A DNA stretch of 64,000 nt from a virus (Duplodnaviria > Heunggongvirae > Uroviricota > Caudoviricetes), in IMG/VR virus record IMGVR_UViG_3300048925_000677, positions 53,569 to 117,568 of that record. One strand, given 5' to 3'. Shown here piece by piece: positions 3,462-34,696 of the stretch (its first letter is position 1; each line of letters starts with the position of its first letter). Made by a program: the position numbers and the translations under genes. Below the pieces are notes generated by a model. It was not told the DNA's origin. It saw only the letters and a list, made by a program, of their open reading frames with translations, and did not search any database.

Positions 3462-3613
3462 GTGCAGAGCGCGCCCGTAGGGCGGACAAGATCGCCGCGA
3501 AGTTCGAAAAGCAGGGCGATATGAGCAGCGCCGGTTACTGGCGCCAGAAGGCGGAGAACTACCGGAAACTGGTCGTCGCACGTGAGGTTGTCGAGAGCTG
3601 GAGTAACGCATGA
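3458..3613 (+). CDS. hypothetical small protein (51 aa)
   Basis: MSAERARRADKIAAKFEKQGDMSSAGYWRQKAENYRKLVVAREVVESWSNA. ATGA overlaps at both ends. Confidence 0.35.
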   Translation: MSAERARRADKIAAKFEKQGDMSSAGYWRQKAENYRKLVVAREVVESWSNA

Positions 3614-3699
3614 TCCGCGCAATGGTCGCTTCGGTCATCTTCGCCGCGATTATGGCCGAGAGCTTCAATATGGCCGCAACCCTGTTGGTGGCGCGATGA
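3610..3699 (+). CDS. hypothetical small membrane peptide (29 aa)
   Basis: MIRAMVASVIFAAIMAESFNMAATLLVAR. Hydrophobic; ATGA-coupled at both ends. Confidence 0.3.
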   Translation: MIRAMVASVIFAAIMAESFNMAATLLVAR

Positions 3700-3965
3700 A
3701 TGCCCGTCACGCCCTGGCGATGCTCGACGCGAATTGGCTAGACCATCTCGCCGCGATGCCTGCCGAGGAATTGCAGCGGCTACAGCGTGAGCTGCTTTCC
3801 ATGTCGCGACACCCGTCGCTGGCCCTCAACGCTCCAGCTCGGCTCATTGCCGGCGAGCGGATGAAGGACGTCGATGAGGAGATAGCGCGGCGATTCTCGG
3901 CCATCTGGGGACACGCGGACAATGACGCGCTATCCCTCCAGATGTACCGAATTACCCGTTCATAG
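3696..3965 (+). CDS. hypothetical protein
   Basis: ORF 3582..3965 trimmed to ATG 3696 (MNARHALAML..), which is ATGA-coupled to the upstream peptide. Confidence 0.45.
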   Translation: MNARHALAMLDANWLDHLAAMPAEELQRLQRELLSMSRHPSLALNAPARLIAGERMKDVDEEIARRFSAIWGHADNDALSLQMYRITRS

Positions 3966-21420: not shown

Positions 21421-21675
21421 CTAGCTTTTGAAACGACTCCAGAAGTCGGTCGACATCAAGTCGTGCTTCGCGGGGCTCGGGATCGCGTTCGCCAGGTGCA
21501 ATGTCACCTGGGCGCCGACGGCGATAATGAGCAGGCGGGCGAGCACCGGATGTTTCACAATCCAGCGATCACACTCGGCGGACAGCAGTTCGCCTGGCTC
21601 GCAAGTCAATTCCCAGTGGACGATGTCGACGATGATCATCAGCCACTTCTGTTTGGCCTTCACCCGACCGGCCAC
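21421..21675 (-). CDS. hypothetical protein
   Basis: 84-aa ORF. Confidence 0.35.
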   Translation of the reverse strand: MAGRVKAKQKWLMIIVDIVHWELTCEPGELLSAECDRWIVKHPVLARLLIIAVGAQVTLHLANAIPSPAKHDLMSTDFWSRFKS

Positions 21676-21920: not shown

Positions 21921-22311
21921 TGGGTCGGCCGGGGCGCAACCTCGACCCGCACCGGGGAGGCGCCCAAGCGCTAAAAAAGACGACCCCCCGGTAACTCAAA
22001 CAGCGCTGAGAAAGAGAGGTCGCTGGGTTCTGCTGGGGGATCGTCTTTGTTCGATGCGACTAGTCGTCGAGGATTTCATCCTCGTCTTCGTCGTCATAGG
22101 AATAACGCCCGGATCGAGCGTCTTCCAAGATGTTGTCCACGTTGTTCAATCCGGTTTGCGGATCGACATAGGGATCTCGCGGCATTGCTGTACTCCGGCT
22201 TCTGCCGGTCAACGATGCAGCTCACGAGGCTTTCCGGCCTGCCCAGGTGACGTTTGCTGAGGAACTGTTCTCCTCACCTTCGTCACCAGGGCAAATGGCC
22301 GTGACCTGCGA

Positions 22312-23037
22312 TTATTCAGTTTTTCTGATGTACGCCTTTTTCGCGGCGTCTCGTCGACATTGTTTGCACTGCGATTGCAGGCCGTCGGCATTCCTGCCAT
22401 GCGCAGAGAAGTACTGTAGGCCCTTCGACTTCTTGCAGTTGCTGCACACTTTGCGCGGACCCTCATTGACGCCGAGCAGTGGAATGTCCTCTTCCGAGGA
22501 GCCCCAGTTGTCGACGTCATCGAGGTGCCGCATCAGTGATTGACGCTCATGCAGTCGTTGATTCCTGGCCCGGTCGTTCCCGTCGTCGACCGCGGCGCAG
22601 ATGGTCGGCGAGAGGTAGGCGATATCGCCCGGGTCGACCGCGATGGCGAATGCCGAGTCCTGGGTATCCCAGTCGTTGGCGGGGTCGTACGCGTCGAGAT
22701 CGTCGTCGGAGATTAGGCCGCTCTCGTAGCCCAGCTTCTCCTTGTCGCGGGCGATACTGCGCTTATTCTCGCCCGCCGATTCTCTGAGGAGTTTGTCCGC
22801 TAGTCGCTCAAGCTCCTCGTCGGCGCCATACTTGACGACCCCAAGGTGCGCTGATTCTTCGGTCAGTTACCACTCCTCGCAGGTTGTGCCGTCCGGGTGG
22901 TCAAACCCGGACGCGATGACCTCAAAGCCAGTGAAGCTGTCGTGGACGAAAGCCCTCAATTCCCAGTAGTCGCCGACCTCGCCGCAGGCGGGGCATTCGA
23001 CACCGGGAATGAGGACGTCATCCCATGGGCGCTTCAC
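22312..23037 (-). pseudogene. 242-codon reading frame interrupted by a single in-frame TAA (22867-22869); pseudogene, readthrough or two coupled genes
   Basis: GTG 23037 (GTGA overlap with the Namat stop) through ..TTCEEW then TAA, then the same frame stays open for 185 codons to the stop at 22312. The post-TAA segment has no ATG/GTG/TTG before Met 22533. Confidence 0.4.
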
Positions 23038-24506
23038 GCCGCGGCAAGCACCGCACGGACGTTGGCGAAGTCCTGGAATTGCAGGAACTTCCCGTCCTCC
23101 CAGATGGGCTGCAGCAGCGAGTGGACCTCTTGGTACCCCTCGGCCTGCTGATGCAGCACCAACTCGCCCCCAGGGCCAGGCAGCACCGCGAGGCGCCCGG
23201 TGGCGGACTTCTTGGTGCCGTCGTCGGTGATCGGGTCCTTCAGCAAGTTCACGCCCCTGCCGTCAACCCTTGCCCAGGTGGCCTTCATTGCCGAACCGAA
23301 CGTGTCCCGCGTGTTGTACTGGTAGGTGAAGCTGCCGACGCCGAATACGACGTTGGACGAGGCCCAGTCCTGGCGTTCCAGGTTGTCAGTGATCGACTTG
23401 GCCCGCTCCACGGTGATCGAGTCGCCGTAGATGACTCCGACGTGCGAATCGAGTTCGTCGTAGCCCTTGGAGTTGGTGGTCGACCCGAAGGTCTGCTCCA
23501 GCAAGCTGAGAACGCCGAAGAAGGCGGGGCTGTCGAGTTCCGCGTCCGGATCGCCGCACAGGATCTTCTCCGGATCACCGCTGTCCGGCCGGATCACCAG
23601 CTTGCCGTCGCGCGCCAGGATCTTGTCCTTGAGCGCCGGGAGGTACTCGGTCAGCACCTTCCAGAGGTCGAAGGTGTCCGAGACGACCGACACGATGCCC
23701 GTCGGGTACAAGTCCAACAGGCGCGAGAAGGTCTCCAACTCACCGTGCGTGGCGATGCCGGTGCACATCACTGAGTGCTCGGTGGCGGCCACGCTGCCGG
23801 CGACATACTCGCCGCCGTAGTAACGGTCGATCCAGTCGAGCGCCGGCAGTGAGTCGGTGCCATTGAACGACAGCAGGTGAGCAGCGCCGGACACCGCAGC
23901 GGTCTCGATACTCGACATTCCCCGCATGGAGAAGTCGTGGATCTGCCAGTCGACGACGGCCCGGTCAACCCCAGTGCGATCCGCCGCGGCTTCCATCACC
24001 CGTCGGTACCGGTGGGCAATGGTCGCCGATGTACTGGCCTGCCAGTAGCCGGCGGAAATTCCGGTCTCGACATAGTTGGTCAGCCAGCCGAAGTCATCAT
24101 CGGTGTTCTCCACGGTGAAGCTGGGCACCCGGATTGGGACCAGCGTGCCCTCCTGGACCGCGCAGAAGCGCAACGGCAGGAATCCCTTGCGGTGCAGGGC
24201 TCGGATGTGGTCGGAGCCGATGTCGTTCGGACCGAGGATCTGCGTGGTGCGCTCCTCGTACAGGCTGCACACCAGATCCTCGTCGGCGGCGAAGAACGGC
24301 TCGAAAGCCTCGACGAGGTGGGCCTGAATGTACGCCTGCAACCCGAAGTGCACGACGCGGTCAACGCCCTCGATGCGGGACTTCCGGTTGGTGAAGTTCG
24401 AGTAGACCCGGGTGACCTTGCCGCTCAGTTCGTACTGCCGGCGGTGGTCGAGCTTGTAGGCGTCGGTCTGGAAGAGTGCCGCCACGGGGGCGAACTTAGC
24501 TGTCAT
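23034..24506 (-). CDS. NAMPT-family phosphoribosyltransferase (NadV-like; candidate Namat of NARP1)
   Basis: 490 aa; VVSDTFDLW and RPDSGDP NAMPT signature motifs. Confidence 0.75.
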   Translation of the reverse strand: MTAKFAPVAALFQTDAYKLDHRRQYELSGKVTRVYSNFTNRKSRIEGVDRVVHFGLQAYIQAHLVEAFEPFFAADEDLVCSLYEERTTQILGPNDIGSDHIRALHRKGFLPLRFCAVQEGTLVPIRVPSFTVENTDDDFGWLTNYVETGISAGYWQASTSATIAHRYRRVMEAAADRTGVDRAVVDWQIHDFSMRGMSSIETAAVSGAAHLLSFNGTDSLPALDWIDRYYGGEYVAGSVAATEHSVMCTGIATHGELETFSRLLDLYPTGIVSVVSDTFDLWKVLTEYLPALKDKILARDGKLVIRPDSGDPEKILCGDPDAELDSPAFFGVLSLLEQTFGSTTNSKGYDELDSHVGVIYGDSITVERAKSITDNLERQDWASSNVVFGVGSFTYQYNTRDTFGSAMKATWARVDGRGVNLLKDPITDDGTKKSATGRLAVLPGPGGELVLHQQAEGYQEVHSLLQPIWEDGKFLQFQDFANVRAVLAAA

Positions 24507-32808: not shown

Positions 32809-33048
32809 TCAGTCATCGAGGCCCAGGGCGGCCTCGGCCTCGTCGTAGACCTCTTCCATCCGGTCGATGAACGCGCGCAGGGCCGGCTCGTTGCCATCCT
32901 CCAGGGTGAACTGCTTCTCGTCGCTGCAGACGTAGAAGGCCGCAGCGAACAGAATCAGCTCCTCCACCGGCGTGGTCATCATCTCGGCGACTGCTTCTTT
33001 GACGTTCACTGTGCTCCCATGATTTTGGGCGAAGGCCGAACGACCCAC
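32809..33048 (-). CDS. hypothetical protein
   Basis: 79-aa ORF. Confidence 0.4.
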   Translation of the reverse strand: MGRSAFAQNHGSTVNVKEAVAEMMTTPVEELILFAAAFYVCSDEKQFTLEDGNEPALRAFIDRMEEVYDEAEAALGLDD

Positions 33049-33668
33049 GCATATCTCTTGAAATCGATCTGCGACGGGGCGCCGACCACATATCCGCCTT
33101 CGCCGCGGTAGTCGATGCCCTTGCGGACATTGGCGCGGTTACCGTTGCCGGTCTTCTCGACGTAGATGTGGAAACCCCTTGGAGTGGACACCTTCCCATG
33201 AACCTCGGGGATGACGTCGTCGCCCAACTCCCGCAGCGACGCGATGCCATCGGGCCCGTCGATGTCGATGACATCGAAGTTGATCCCGGTGGGCAGGCCG
33301 ATGTTGTACTCCGGATTCTGCGTCCACCACGCCCGAACCTGGTCGACATCCGTCGTGGCGTCGTGCAGGCCGTTTCCGCCGTCGCGCTTGCTGATCGCCG
33401 GCTGCTTCGAGTTCGGGTACAGCGGGAACACCGGCCAGCCGCGTTTGGCGTACCAAAGGGCCGAGGAGCCTAGAGAAGCCACCTTCGGCTGATTCACTAG
33501 CTTCTCCAGGCGGTCGGCCTCTGCATGATCTTCGCGGATGATCGCGTCGACGAACGCACGTGATAGCAGCTCGGCGTCCGTCTGTGGGCAGGTCGGGTGG
33601 GACTCCTGACCCACGTATGTAACCTGCAGGGGCTCTTTGCATTGCGCGCAGGTGGTGTAGGTCAGCAA
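33006..33668 (-). CDS. bifunctional DNA primase/polymerase (PrimPol N-terminal domain) with zinc ribbon
   Basis: 220 aa; CAQCKEP..CPQ; ALWYAKRGWPVFPL..NIGLPTGINFDVIDIDG Prim-Pol signature. Confidence 0.7.
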   Translation of the reverse strand: MLTYTTCAQCKEPLQVTYVGQESHPTCPQTDAELLSRAFVDAIIREDHAEADRLEKLVNQPKVASLGSSALWYAKRGWPVFPLYPNSKQPAISKRDGGNGLHDATTDVDQVRAWWTQNPEYNIGLPTGINFDVIDIDGPDGIASLRELGDDVIPEVHGKVSTPRGFHIYVEKTGNGNRANVRKGIDYRGEGGYVVGAPSQIDFKRYAWVVRPSPKIMGAQ

Positions 33669-33783
33669 ATCGTCTCCTAGATGATGGGTACCGCGAGCAC
33701 GCCGACTACCGCGAGACCGGTCGCGATCACTGAAATGGCAGCGACGGCAAGAATGATCAGCAGGATCGCGAGAGGTGTGCCCC

Positions 33784-34587
33784 TCACCGCAGGTCGTACG
33801 TCTGACGCTCTTCGAGGGTGGCGACCCGGAAGGTCGGCTTGCCGGTCTCGTAGTCCCAGCCCTCGACGATGTGGTCGCCCTCGACCAGCTCGACCGCCGG
33901 CGTACCCAGCGCGCTGAACGGGGGCAGACCGATGGATTCGTCGCCGACGAGGATCTCGCCGCCGAGCTTCTTGCCGATCTCGGCGCCGATGTCGCGGACG
34001 TTGTCCTTGGTCAGCTTGACCGACTTGAATTCGGAGGTCTTCTCGTACTGCGCGCGGAACTGTGACACGGGGGTCTCCTTCTTGGGGACGCTGGGGAGGG
34101 TGGGCTTGCCGTAACTCAGGTTGGCCAGGTGGGCGACGGAATCCCTGACCCACGCGGGCGACGCAACGCCGTAACCACCACCGCCGCCGGCGCCCCAGTT
34201 TGGACCAAGGTCGGCCTTGGCGAAGCTGTTGAAATAATCGTTCAATTGGGAATCGGTTCCCACGGATTTCACTTTCTTGCCGGTGATGATCGTGCGATCA
34301 AGGTCCTGGATGATCACGTCGCACTGCGGCTCTAGTAATGACCGCCAGCCCGGGCCGTCGGCGAAAGGCTTGTACTCCCTGAGGAGTTCGTCCGATACCG
34401 GCTGGAGCGACTGGACCTTCTGATAGTCGCGGATGAGAACGTGGCCGTTGACGACGACCTTGGCAGGCTCCGTGACGTCCGTCGGGATCGTCACGGAGCC
34501 AACGCCAGGGGTCGTGGGCTCGACGCTCAGTGGAACCAAACCCGGTGGATGCTGTCCCCCTTGCGAATTCCGCCGTAGAACACCCAA
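33784..34587 (-). CDS. hypothetical protein (267 aa; Gly-rich loop)
   Basis: Long ORF between the PrimPol and SSB-like genes; GAGGGGGYG loop. Possible recombination function (inference only). Confidence 0.45.
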   Translation of the reverse strand: MGVLRRNSQGGQHPPGLVPLSVEPTTPGVGSVTIPTDVTEPAKVVVNGHVLIRDYQKVQSLQPVSDELLREYKPFADGPGWRSLLEPQCDVIIQDLDRTIITGKKVKSVGTDSQLNDYFNSFAKADLGPNWGAGGGGGYGVASPAWVRDSVAHLANLSYGKPTLPSVPKKETPVSQFRAQYEKTSEFKSVKLTKDNVRDIGAEIGKKLGGEILVGDESIGLPPFSALGTPAVELVEGDHIVEGWDYETGKPTFRVATLEERQTYDLR

Positions 34588-34696
34588 CCGAAAAGTCGAA
34601 ACCCGAAGTTGCGCTCGCGGTTTCGCTTGCGGATGACGCCGACCAGGTGTCGGGCCTGCTCAGGGGTTATGAGGTAATCACTCACGCGGTCGACGG

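What the first reader, a model, noticed from the sequence alone, without database searches (positions are those of the whole stretch)
22312..23037. In-frame TAA splitting a 242-codon reading frame downstream of the NAMPT-like gene
From GTG 23037 the frame encodes a zinc-ribbon-containing 56-aa segment (..CPACGEV..TTCEEW), hits a single TAA at 22867-22869, then continues in the same frame for 185 more codons of protein-like sequence to 22312. The post-stop segment has no canonical start for its first 111 codons (first ATG at 22533). The options are a recent nonsense mutation (pseudogene), a sequencing error, programmed readthrough/recoding, or non-canonical reinitiation.
Basis: seen in the sequence. 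Interest (0 to 1): 0.5.

Follow-up and report, generated by a model that had tools for sequence, protein, structure and literature searches.

The report
Two abutting phage genes, CTG start
The "split" reading frame is two separate phage genes that sit end to end in the same frame; the only oddity is that the second gene has CTG where its relatives have a normal start codon, so it is either made weakly or has just been switched off.

Summary
On the minus strand, GTG 23037 opens 56 codons. A TAA follows at 22869-22867, then 184 sense codons run in the same frame to TAA 22314-22312. The first ATG/GTG/TTG after the stop is ATG 22533.

It is not one gene split by a stop. The 56-aa Cys/His protein is a free-standing gene in four lineages. 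It always ends at the same Trp, with TAA, TAG or TGA, and different genes follow it. The downstream segment is a complete member of a roughly 180-aa mycobacteriophage family (phrog_6611, E 7e-69). That family is always free-standing and starts with ATG, GTG or TTG.

In the window the two genes abut with no spacer, at a mosaic joint that falls on the stop codon. The first codon after the stop, CTG 22866-22864, aligns codon for codon with the GTG start of the phage WXIN ortholog. An AGGAG lies 6 nt upstream of it. Two independent Logan assemblies reproduce the junction, so it is not an assembly error.

My best reading is weak initiation at CUG, directed by the Shine-Dalgarno sequence and coupled to upstream termination (about 0.5). 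The main rival is a very recent loss of the start codon (about 0.3). Programmed readthrough is unsupported. Interest is low to moderate.

The parts
23034..24506 (-). Upstream 490-aa nicotinamide/nicotinate phosphoribosyltransferase gene. Its TGA stop overlaps the GTG start of the next gene (GTGA).
   Evidence: ORF list. The exact protein is in JGI/IMG, named nicotinamide phosphoribosyltransferase. PF04095 is recorded on the identical gene in L012. Sequence read.
22867..23037 (-). Free-standing 56-aa Cys/His (CxxC...H...C) small-protein gene, including its natural TAA stop at 22869-22867.
   Evidence: Orthologs of 55-56 aa in WXIN, L010 and L014 all end ...DHPDGTTCE(E/D)W followed by a stop (TAG, TGA, TGA-TGA). 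The automatic gene call in L012 gives the same 56 aa.
22873..22877 (-). AGGAG Shine-Dalgarno-like pentamer inside codons E54-E55 of the upstream gene, 6 nt (TGGTAA) before the CTG.
   Evidence: Sequence. The same GAGGAGTGG precedes the overlapping start of the next gene in WXIN (TAGTG) and L010 (TGATG).
22864..22866 (-). CTG codon immediately after the TAA. It is the candidate near-cognate initiation codon of the downstream gene.
   Evidence: It aligns codon for codon with the GTG start of the WXIN ortholog. It is the only near-cognate of ATG between the stop and the conserved HLGxVKYG motif. It is identical in L012 and L013.
22312..22866 (-). Complete 184-codon phrog_6611-family gene. The N-terminal roughly 130 aa have no known function. 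The C-terminus is a Cys4 module (C141, C144, C167, C170). Stop is TAA 22314-22312.
   Evidence: phrog_6611 E 7e-69, residues 8-176 matching profile positions 12-179 of 180. It is 50-63% identical to free-standing proteins of 171-190 aa. All 35 family-invariant columns are kept.
22315..22533 (-). The 73-aa product that automatic gene callers report, starting at the first ATG. It is a truncated call containing little more than the C-terminal Cys4 module.
   Evidence: The exact 73-aa sequence is in JGI/IMG and Logan as a hypothetical protein. It lacks 24 of the 35 invariant family residues. No Shine-Dalgarno-like sequence lies upstream of it.
22160..22300 (-). Conserved non-coding stretch after the gene: a -10-like box followed by an element with core CCGGAAAGCCTCGTG at 22237-22223. 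It travels with phrog_6611 genes in other phages.
   Evidence: Alignments. Among 99 loci the core is found only next to full-length phrog_6611 genes. It is present but unannotated in at least 40 cluster J records. There is no Rfam match.

Best explanation
These are two independent genes of one minus-strand operon in an uncultivated relative of the cluster J (Omegavirus-like) mycobacteriophages.

Shown. (1) A 56-aa Cys/His protein gene has TAA 22869-22867 as its conserved natural stop. (2) A complete 184-codon phrog_6611-family gene begins directly after that stop. The two were brought together by a mosaic recombination joint that lies on the stop codon, so they happen to share a frame. At the position where relatives carry GTG, TTG or ATG, the second gene has CTG (22866-22864). 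An AGGAG sits 6 nt upstream, formed by the Glu-Glu codons of the first gene.

Inferred. Translation of the second gene, if it happens, starts at this CUG with initiator tRNA. It would use 30S subunits held by the AGGAG, or ribosomes that have just terminated at the adjacent UAA (translational coupling). The product would be a low-abundance full-length protein starting fMet-Thr-Glu-Glu. One substitution (C to A, G or T), or loss of the C to give TAATG, would restore a canonical start.

I put the two-gene part at about 0.95. I put real CUG initiation, as opposed to a silent gene, at about 0.5.
For: The stop is ancestral. Four orthologs of the 56-aa gene end at the same Trp with three different stop codons, and are followed by unrelated genes.

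The downstream gene is a complete family member. The phrog_6611 match is full length at E 7e-69. The 11 database homologs (139-189 aa), the five annotated phage orthologs inspected of 55 phage records with a match, and 5 IMG/VR loci are free-standing. Every start inspected is ATG, GTG or TTG, 1-10 codons before the HLGxVKYG motif.

The CTG lines up with WXIN's GTG: CTG ACC GAA GAA TCA GCG CAC CTT against GTG GGA AGT GAG TCG --- CAT CTT.

Cluster J phages have the same stop-then-start architecture with no spacer, TAA|ATG, so coupling to the upstream gene is usual for this family.

Homology to the closest relative, L014 (77% nt), stops at window 22869, the first base of the TAA.

The AGGAG-N6-CTG geometry is read directly from the sequence. 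Four-base overlaps (ATGA/GTGA) dominate gene junctions in the window, which indicates pervasive coupling.

The ORF is intact, keeps all 35 invariant residues, and has GC3 of 0.74.

The junction is identical in two Logan assemblies from different runs, which differ from the window at one base elsewhere.

CUG supports 1-2% (range 0.02-3%) of AUG-level initiation in E. coli (bioRxiv 10.1101/063800).
Against: In M. smegmatis, a randomised start-codon selection behind a consensus Shine-Dalgarno sequence enriched ATG, GTG, TTG and ATT. CTG was not enriched (0.03% of reads), and the authors note the paucity of CTG starts in mycobacteria (PMC4633059). Output from this CUG could therefore be close to nil in a mycobacterial host.

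The AGGAG is forced by the conserved C-terminal ...CEEW of the upstream protein, so its presence is not independent evidence of selection for initiation.

No relative shares this joint, so conservation of the CTG cannot be tested. An intact ORF is equally expected for a gene that lost its start very recently.

The host is unknown.
Confidence: 0.5

Rival explanations
1. Nascent pseudogene by start-codon loss. The two genes are separate, but the downstream gene lost its canonical start very recently. The cause would be a point mutation ([AGT]TG to CTG), a one-base insertion (TAATG to TAACTG), or the recombination joint itself. The gene is now effectively silent and has not yet accumulated further damage.
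For: The window gene is the only family member seen without ATG, GTG or TTG near the N-terminus. CTG was not selected as a start in M. smegmatis (PMC4633059). The linked downstream non-coding element is also atypical here: its otherwise invariant 3' half GCCAAAMAACCGG reads GCCGGAGTACAGC. The gene is accessory, being absent from the close relative L014.
Against: The 184 codons contain no stop or frameshift, and all 35 family-invariant residues are kept. Coding-type GC3 is retained. The joint preserves the whole ORF from codon 1, with a well-spaced AGGAG. The same sequence appears in every assembly seen. None of this excludes a very recent event.
Confidence: 0.3
2. Only the 73-aa C-terminal Cys4 module is made, starting from ATG 22533. 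This is what the automatic annotation assumes.
For: It is the first canonical start in the frame. JGI and Logan gene callers report exactly this product. The C-terminal module is the only part that AlphaFold2 models with confidence.
Against: No Shine-Dalgarno-like sequence precedes it (...GAGCGTCAATCACTGATG). It would drop 24 of the 35 invariant residues and the conserved N-terminal 111 codons, which still show coding-type GC3 and 50-63% identity to homologs. No family member is that short, apart from one 139-aa call.
Confidence: 0.07
3. Programmed or leaky readthrough of the TAA produces a 241-aa fusion of the small Cys/His protein and the phrog_6611 protein.
For: The two ORFs are in the same frame with nothing between them except the stop.
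Against: No fused homolog exists in any search. The two genes are separated or unlinked in all relatives. The stop position is conserved with all three stop codons. UAA is, from general knowledge, the least leaky bacterial stop. The window encodes no tRNA. TAA ends other ORFs in the window (5 of 73). There is no unusual RNA structure around the stop (z = -0.07).
Confidence: 0.03
4. Sequencing or assembly error at the junction, for example a miscalled first base of GTG or ATG.
For: A single-base change would make the locus ordinary.
Against: The window contig (JGI) and two Logan assemblies from different SRA runs (SRR35925732, SRR35925767) carry GAGGAGTGGTAACTGACC identically. They differ from the window at one other base, 22245. 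No other ORF in the window shows a comparable defect.
Confidence: 0.03

Closest known systems
phrog_6611 genes of cluster J (Omegavirus) mycobacteriophages, e.g. MiaZeal gp162, Optimus gp158, Courthouse gp156; also Gaia gp122 and the WXIN 183-aa gene
   Same: Same protein family over the full length (50-54% identity). Same C-terminal Cys4 module. Same position as the last gene before a roughly 250-300 bp gap that carries the conserved non-coding element. In MiaZeal and Optimus the upstream gene's TAA is likewise followed at once by the start codon.
   Different: Those genes start with ATG (cluster J), TTG (Gaia) or GTG (WXIN). The window has CTG. The upstream neighbour also differs.
Near-cognate bacterial start codons (CUG, AUU, AUC, AUA), as measured in E. 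coli (bioRxiv 10.1101/063800) and M. smegmatis (PMC4633059)
   Same: A single-base departure from AUG, placed behind a well-spaced Shine-Dalgarno sequence. Low output is expected.
   Different: No expression evidence exists here. In M. smegmatis ATT worked in the selection but CTG did not. Here the codon also directly abuts an upstream stop, a context those reporter assays did not test.
Translational coupling by termination-reinitiation between adjacent or overlapping genes
   Same: Stop and candidate start are adjacent with no spacer, on one strand, in a genome where ATGA/GTGA overlaps are the commonest junction. A Shine-Dalgarno sequence lies inside the upstream coding sequence.
   Different: Described cases use canonical restart codons. 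IF3 disfavours non-canonical ones (PMC2268962).
Programmed stop-codon readthrough in phages (Q-beta coat/A1 protein; from general knowledge)
   Same: An in-frame stop lies between two coding segments of a phage.
   Different: In Q-beta the stop is UGA, the extension has no independent existence, and the arrangement is conserved. Here the stop is UAA, both parts are independent genes elsewhere, and the adjacency is unique to this genome.

Membership tests
Single gene interrupted by a nonsense mutation (pseudogene) | Orthologs have one uninterrupted ORF covering both segments. | tested here: not met
   The orthologs are separate genes of 55-56 aa and 171-190 aa. They are separated by 2-3 genes or not linked at all. 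No protein of about 240 aa was found.
Programmed stop-codon readthrough | The in-frame adjacency of the two segments is conserved among relatives. | tested here: not met
   The adjacency is seen only in this genome and its near-identical assemblies.
Programmed stop-codon readthrough | A leaky stop context, a stimulatory RNA structure, or a suppressor tRNA. | tested here: not met
   The stop is TAA. Folding of -40 to +40 gives z = -0.07. No tRNA gene lies in the 64-kb window; the rest of the 123-kb contig was not seen.
Translationally coupled gene pair (termination-reinitiation) | Upstream stop and downstream start lie within a few nucleotides on the same strand. | tested here: met
   TAA 22869-22867 is followed directly by codon 1 at 22866. 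Family N-termini map to this point.
Translationally coupled gene pair (termination-reinitiation) | A canonical restart codon (ATG, GTG or TTG). | tested here: not met
   The codon is CTG. There is no ATG, GTG or TTG for 111 codons.
Near-cognate (CUG) initiation | A near-cognate codon at the position homologous to orthologs' start codons, with a Shine-Dalgarno sequence 5-9 nt upstream. | tested here: met
   The CTG aligns to WXIN's GTG. AGGAG at 22877-22873 lies 6 nt upstream.
Near-cognate (CUG) initiation | Protein or ribosome evidence that translation starts there, or conservation of the codon among diverged relatives. | not testable with these tools
   No expression data are available. No diverged relative shares the joint.
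phrog_6611 protein family | Full-length profile match and retention of the family's invariant residues. | tested here: met
   E 7e-69 covering profile positions 12-179 of 180. All 35 invariant columns include the window sequence.
HNH endonuclease (the name given to some orthologs in GenBank, e.g. KashFlow gp159) | An HNH / beta-beta-alpha-Me catalytic domain. | tested here: not met
   Pfam gives no HNH hit. PHROG matches to HNH and endonuclease VII families cover only residues 113-183, the Cys4 module. Foldseek's best hit is a 39-column stretch of the beta-beta-alpha-Me endonuclease Hpy99I at E 0.9.

The most novel reading that the evidence does not exclude
The CTG is a genuine, maintained initiation codon. 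Because it directly abuts the upstream UAA and sits behind an AGGAG, terminating ribosomes would reinitiate on CUG efficiently enough for function. This would happen in an actinobacterial host where CUG fails in ordinary Shine-Dalgarno-led initiation. It would be a natural demonstration that termination-coupled reinitiation relaxes start-codon stringency in mycobacteria-like hosts. It would also mean that phage gene callers restricted to ATG, GTG and TTG systematically truncate such genes.
Probability: 0.2. Interest if true: 0.5.

Novelty: new member of a known kind. Interest (0 to 1): 0.25.

Why it matters
In practice this corrects the annotation. The public gene call for this locus is a 73-aa fragment, whereas the real unit is a 184-codon gene of a conserved mycobacteriophage family. 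The "split ORF" should not be recorded as a recoding event.

In biological terms it offers one clean natural test case: Shine-Dalgarno sequence, 6 nt, CTG, directly after a stop. It could show whether translational coupling lets a CUG codon work in an actinobacterial host, where reporter selections found CUG inactive. If the answer is no, the locus is simply a snapshot of an accessory phage gene at the moment it was silenced.

Tried and rejected
- **Close DNA relatives.** Megablast of the locus against 50,697 phage records found nothing. The wider 24-kb query found only about 73-76% patches to cluster J and Gordonia phages.
- **Relatives sharing the joint.** I tried single-protein scans of IMG/VR, the 5.8-billion-protein search with each half, and a degenerate DNA pattern for the C-terminus of the 56-aa gene in all three contig collections. 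The pattern scans only hit unrelated DUF333 proteins. Conservation of the CTG and dN/dS after the joint therefore could not be measured.
- **Protein search gap.** One search did not return the identical 73-aa JGI protein that exact look-up later found. That search can miss close relatives.
- **Other initiation routes.**
  - A GTG at 22873-22871 in another frame needs a frameshift and has no spacing from the AGGAG.
  - In-frame ATC codons occur first at residue 37, have no Shine-Dalgarno sequence, and would remove the conserved N-terminal motif.
  - Leaderless initiation needs a 5' ATG or GTG in mycobacteria.
- **Suppressor tRNA or code change.** The window has no tRNA gene, and TAA ends other ORFs.
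- **RNA structure at the stop.** Folding is no better than shuffled sequence.
- **Function.**
  - Pfam, NCBIfam and PADLOC gave nothing significant for either protein.
  - The AlphaFold2 model is poor outside the C-terminal Cys4 module (pLDDT 67, pTM 0.31).
  - Foldseek against the PDB found nothing below E 0.9.
- **Off-topic paper.** One paper on reinitiation at non-canonical codons (PMC4648390) concerns eukaryotic expression and was set aside.

Full report
**1. The observation**

On the minus strand, GTG 23037-23035 overlaps the TGA stop of the upstream 490-aa NAMPT/NAPRTase gene as GTGA. It opens a 56-codon frame, VKRPWDDVLIPGVECPACGEV...DHPDGTTCEEW. That frame ends at TAA 22869-22867. The same frame then stays open for 184 sense codons to TAA 22314-22312. 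The first ATG/GTG/TTG after the stop is ATG 22533, codon 112.

Third-position GC is 0.66-0.90 in this frame over the whole span and lower in the other two frames. The finding is therefore accurate as written.

Two statistical caveats apply. Two neighbouring genes share a frame one time in three. Start-free runs of 90-168 codons occur inside other confident ORFs of this window, so the 111-codon run is not itself extraordinary. The real anomaly is that no canonical start lies at the N-terminus. In a crude census of about 110 ORFs with coding-type GC3, this is the only credible ORF with that problem.

**2. What the two halves are**

The downstream 184 codons match PHROG family phrog_6611 at E 7e-69. 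Residues 8-176 cover profile positions 12-179 of 180, so this is a complete family member.

tblastn finds the family in 55 Mycobacterium phage records: cluster J/Omegavirus, Gaia and WXIN. The five inspected are annotated as free-standing genes of 178-190 aa. The large protein database adds 11 homologs of 139-189 aa at 52-65% identity, and IMG/VR adds five loci.

Every inspected member has ATG, GTG or TTG 1-10 codons before a conserved (H)LGxVKYGxDxELExLA motif. In the window that motif starts at codon 7. The window protein keeps all 35 invariant columns of the family alignment. Of these, 24 lie upstream of Met112.

The upstream 56-aa protein has orthologs of 55-56 aa in phage WXIN, in Logan contig L010, and in L014/L015 (83% identity). 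All end ...DHPDGTTCE(E/D)W and then stop. The stop codons are TAA (window), TAG (WXIN), TGA (L010) and TGA-TGA (L014).

What follows that stop differs in every lineage:
- In WXIN, three small genes come before the phrog_6611 gene.
- In L010, two genes come before it.
- In L014, lipoprotein-like genes follow and there is no phrog_6611 gene at all.

No fused protein was found anywhere. The TAA is therefore the ancestral stop of an independent gene, not a nonsense mutation inside one gene.

**3. How the two came to abut**

The window is a distant relative of cluster J mycobacteriophages, at about 73% nucleotide identity in patches. Against its closest available relative, L014, nucleotide homology of 77% runs through the NAMPT gene and the 56-aa gene. 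It stops at window 22869, the first base of the TAA, and resumes about 1.2 kb further on, near 21663, at the DUF7427 gene.

The phrog_6611 gene and the non-coding stretch after it therefore form a mosaic module whose left joint lies on the stop codon.

Stop-then-start with no spacer is not unusual for this family. In MiaZeal, Optimus and the IMG/VR cluster J copies, the upstream gene's TAA is followed directly by the family's ATG. In the window as a whole, four-base ATGA/GTGA overlaps are the commonest gene junction.

**4. The residual anomaly: CTG in place of a start codon**

The junction reads GCG AGG AGT GGT AAC TGA CC on the minus strand. In gene frame this is ...GAG GAG TGG TAA | CTG ACC GAA GAA TCA GCG CAC CTT GGG.

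The window's first codons line up with WXIN's as follows:
- Window: CTG ACC GAA GAA TCA GCG CAC CTT
- WXIN: GTG GGA AGT GAG TCG --- CAT CTT

The CTG thus occupies the position of the ortholog's start codon. It is the only near-cognate of ATG between the stop and the conserved motif.

The Glu54-Glu55 codons of the upstream gene form AGGAG (22877-22873), 6 nt before the CTG. In WXIN and L010 the same GAGGAGTGG precedes a downstream gene whose start overlaps the stop by one base, as TAGTG and TGATG.

A single substitution at 22866, or loss of that C to give TAATG, would produce a canonical start in the correct frame. The present state is therefore one mutation away from ordinary.

**5. Is it an error?**

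The exact NAMPT protein and the 73-aa fragment called from ATG 22533 are in JGI/IMG, on contigs up to 123 kb. Two Logan assemblies of different SRA runs, L012 (29 kb, SRR35925732) and L013 (SRR35925767), carry the identical junction. They differ from the window at one base elsewhere, 22245. An assembly artefact is unlikely. These may all sample one natural population.

**6. Mechanism and rivals**

The following are shown:
- There are two genes.
- The stop is conserved.
- The downstream ORF is complete.
- CTG sits at the homologous start position.
- The geometry is AGGAG, 6 nt, CTG.
- The genome context indicates widespread translational coupling.

The following is inferred. Initiator tRNA would pair with CUG on 30S subunits held by the AGGAG, or on ribosomes that have just terminated at the adjacent UAA. 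This would give a low level of full-length protein.

The quantitative background cuts both ways. In E. coli, CUG supports about 1-2% (range 0.02-3%) of AUG initiation (bioRxiv 10.1101/063800). In M. smegmatis, a start-codon selection behind a consensus Shine-Dalgarno sequence enriched ATG, GTG, TTG and ATT but not CTG, which reached 0.03% of reads (PMC4633059). Elevated IF3 inhibits initiation from non-canonical start codons in E. coli (PMC2268962). Neither reporter study tested a CUG placed directly after a stop.

I give coupled CUG initiation about 0.5.

The main rival, at about 0.3, is a just-silenced gene. In its favour:
- It is the only family member without a canonical start.
- The gene is accessory.
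- The linked downstream element is atypical in the window.

Against it, the ORF shows no damage at all, although a very recent event would look the same.

Expression of only the 73-aa C-terminal module gets about 0.07. It has no Shine-Dalgarno sequence and drops most conserved residues.

Readthrough of the UAA gets about 0.03:
- No fused homologs exist.
- UAA is a strong stop.
- The window encodes no tRNA.
- TAA ends 5 of 73 other ORFs.
- Folding around the stop gives z = -0.07.

Sequence error gets about 0.03.

**7. Function**

Neither protein has an assignable function. Pfam, NCBIfam and PADLOC give nothing significant.

In the 184-aa protein, only the C-terminal Cys4 module (C141, C144, C167, C170) is recognisable. 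It resembles the zinc modules attached to phage HNH and endonuclease VII proteins (PHROG hits cover residues 113-183 only). It is the only part AlphaFold2 models with confidence (residues from about 135; overall pLDDT 67, pTM 0.31). Foldseek against the PDB finds nothing below E 0.9.

The "HNH endonuclease" label on some GenBank orthologs is not supported, because no catalytic domain is detectable.

**8. Verdict**

The split-gene and recoding readings are not supported. The locus is two abutting genes at a mosaic joint, and the second lacks a canonical start.

I classify it as a new member of a known kind: a near-cognate start or start-codon lesion in a coupled gene pair. Its main values are the annotation correction and a possible test of whether coupling rescues CUG initiation in actinobacterial hosts. 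Interest is about 0.25.

Noticed in passing
window 22160-22300 (minus strand; core CCGGAAAGCCTCGTG at 22237-22223). Also L002 ~2105-2300, L003, L004 ~2100-2285, L005 ~2105-2260, L009 ~3600-3700, L010 ~1907-2060, L027, L030.: A conserved, unannotated non-coding element lies about 80-130 nt after the stop of phrog_6611 genes. Its consensus is ...GCGATAGTGAGGAAGA (a -10-like box) ... CGGGGCnGCCGGAGAACCUCGCGnGC [optional hairpin] AAAGCCAAACAACCGGCA, followed by GC-rich hairpins. In MiaZeal it ends in a terminator-like stem with a U-rich tail. It is 87-88% identical between a metagenomic contig and at least 40 cluster J GenBank records whose flanking protein is only about 55% identical, and it is unannotated in all of them. 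Among 99 loci the core occurs only beside full-length phrog_6611 genes. An IMG/VR pattern scan finds it only in cluster J phages, Gaia and one prophage-like contig. There is no Rfam match. RNAalifold gives a GCCGG/CCGGC stem with G-C to A-U covariation and 4 compensatory pairs overall, but no settled structure. The window's copy lacks the conserved 3' half. It may be a small RNA, a 5' leader or a riboswitch-like element.
   Followed up: partly
window 22870-22896 (minus strand; C-terminus of the 56-aa protein); L016-L025: The last nine residues of the 56-aa protein, PDGTTCEEW, are identical to the core motif of DUF333 (PF03891) proteins (...ANPAS..C..GG.L......G.C.LPDGTTCEEWA.FRG.C). These turned up in metagenomic and genome-bin (MAG) contigs from unrelated bacterial groups. 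The 56-aa protein does not itself score against DUF333, so this is either a short convergent motif or very remote homology.
   Followed up: partly
window 22245: The only difference between the window and two Logan assemblies over 6.2 kb is a T/A (minus strand) polymorphism. It lies in the non-coding stretch after the phrog_6611 gene, 8 nt upstream of the conserved element core.
   Followed up: no
window 22315-22533 (minus strand): Public automatic annotation (JGI/IMG and Logan) records this gene only as a 73-aa hypothetical protein starting at the first ATG. That truncated entry was not returned by the homology search with the full 184-aa query, so the search can miss even identical short fragments.
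   Followed up: yes
window 33006-34010 (minus strand): This is the only other ORF in the crude census with more than 100 codons (114) before its first canonical start. Its second-position GC is high (0.58) and it overlaps the better ORF 33784-34659, so it is probably partly a shadow frame. I did not examine it further.
   Followed up: no
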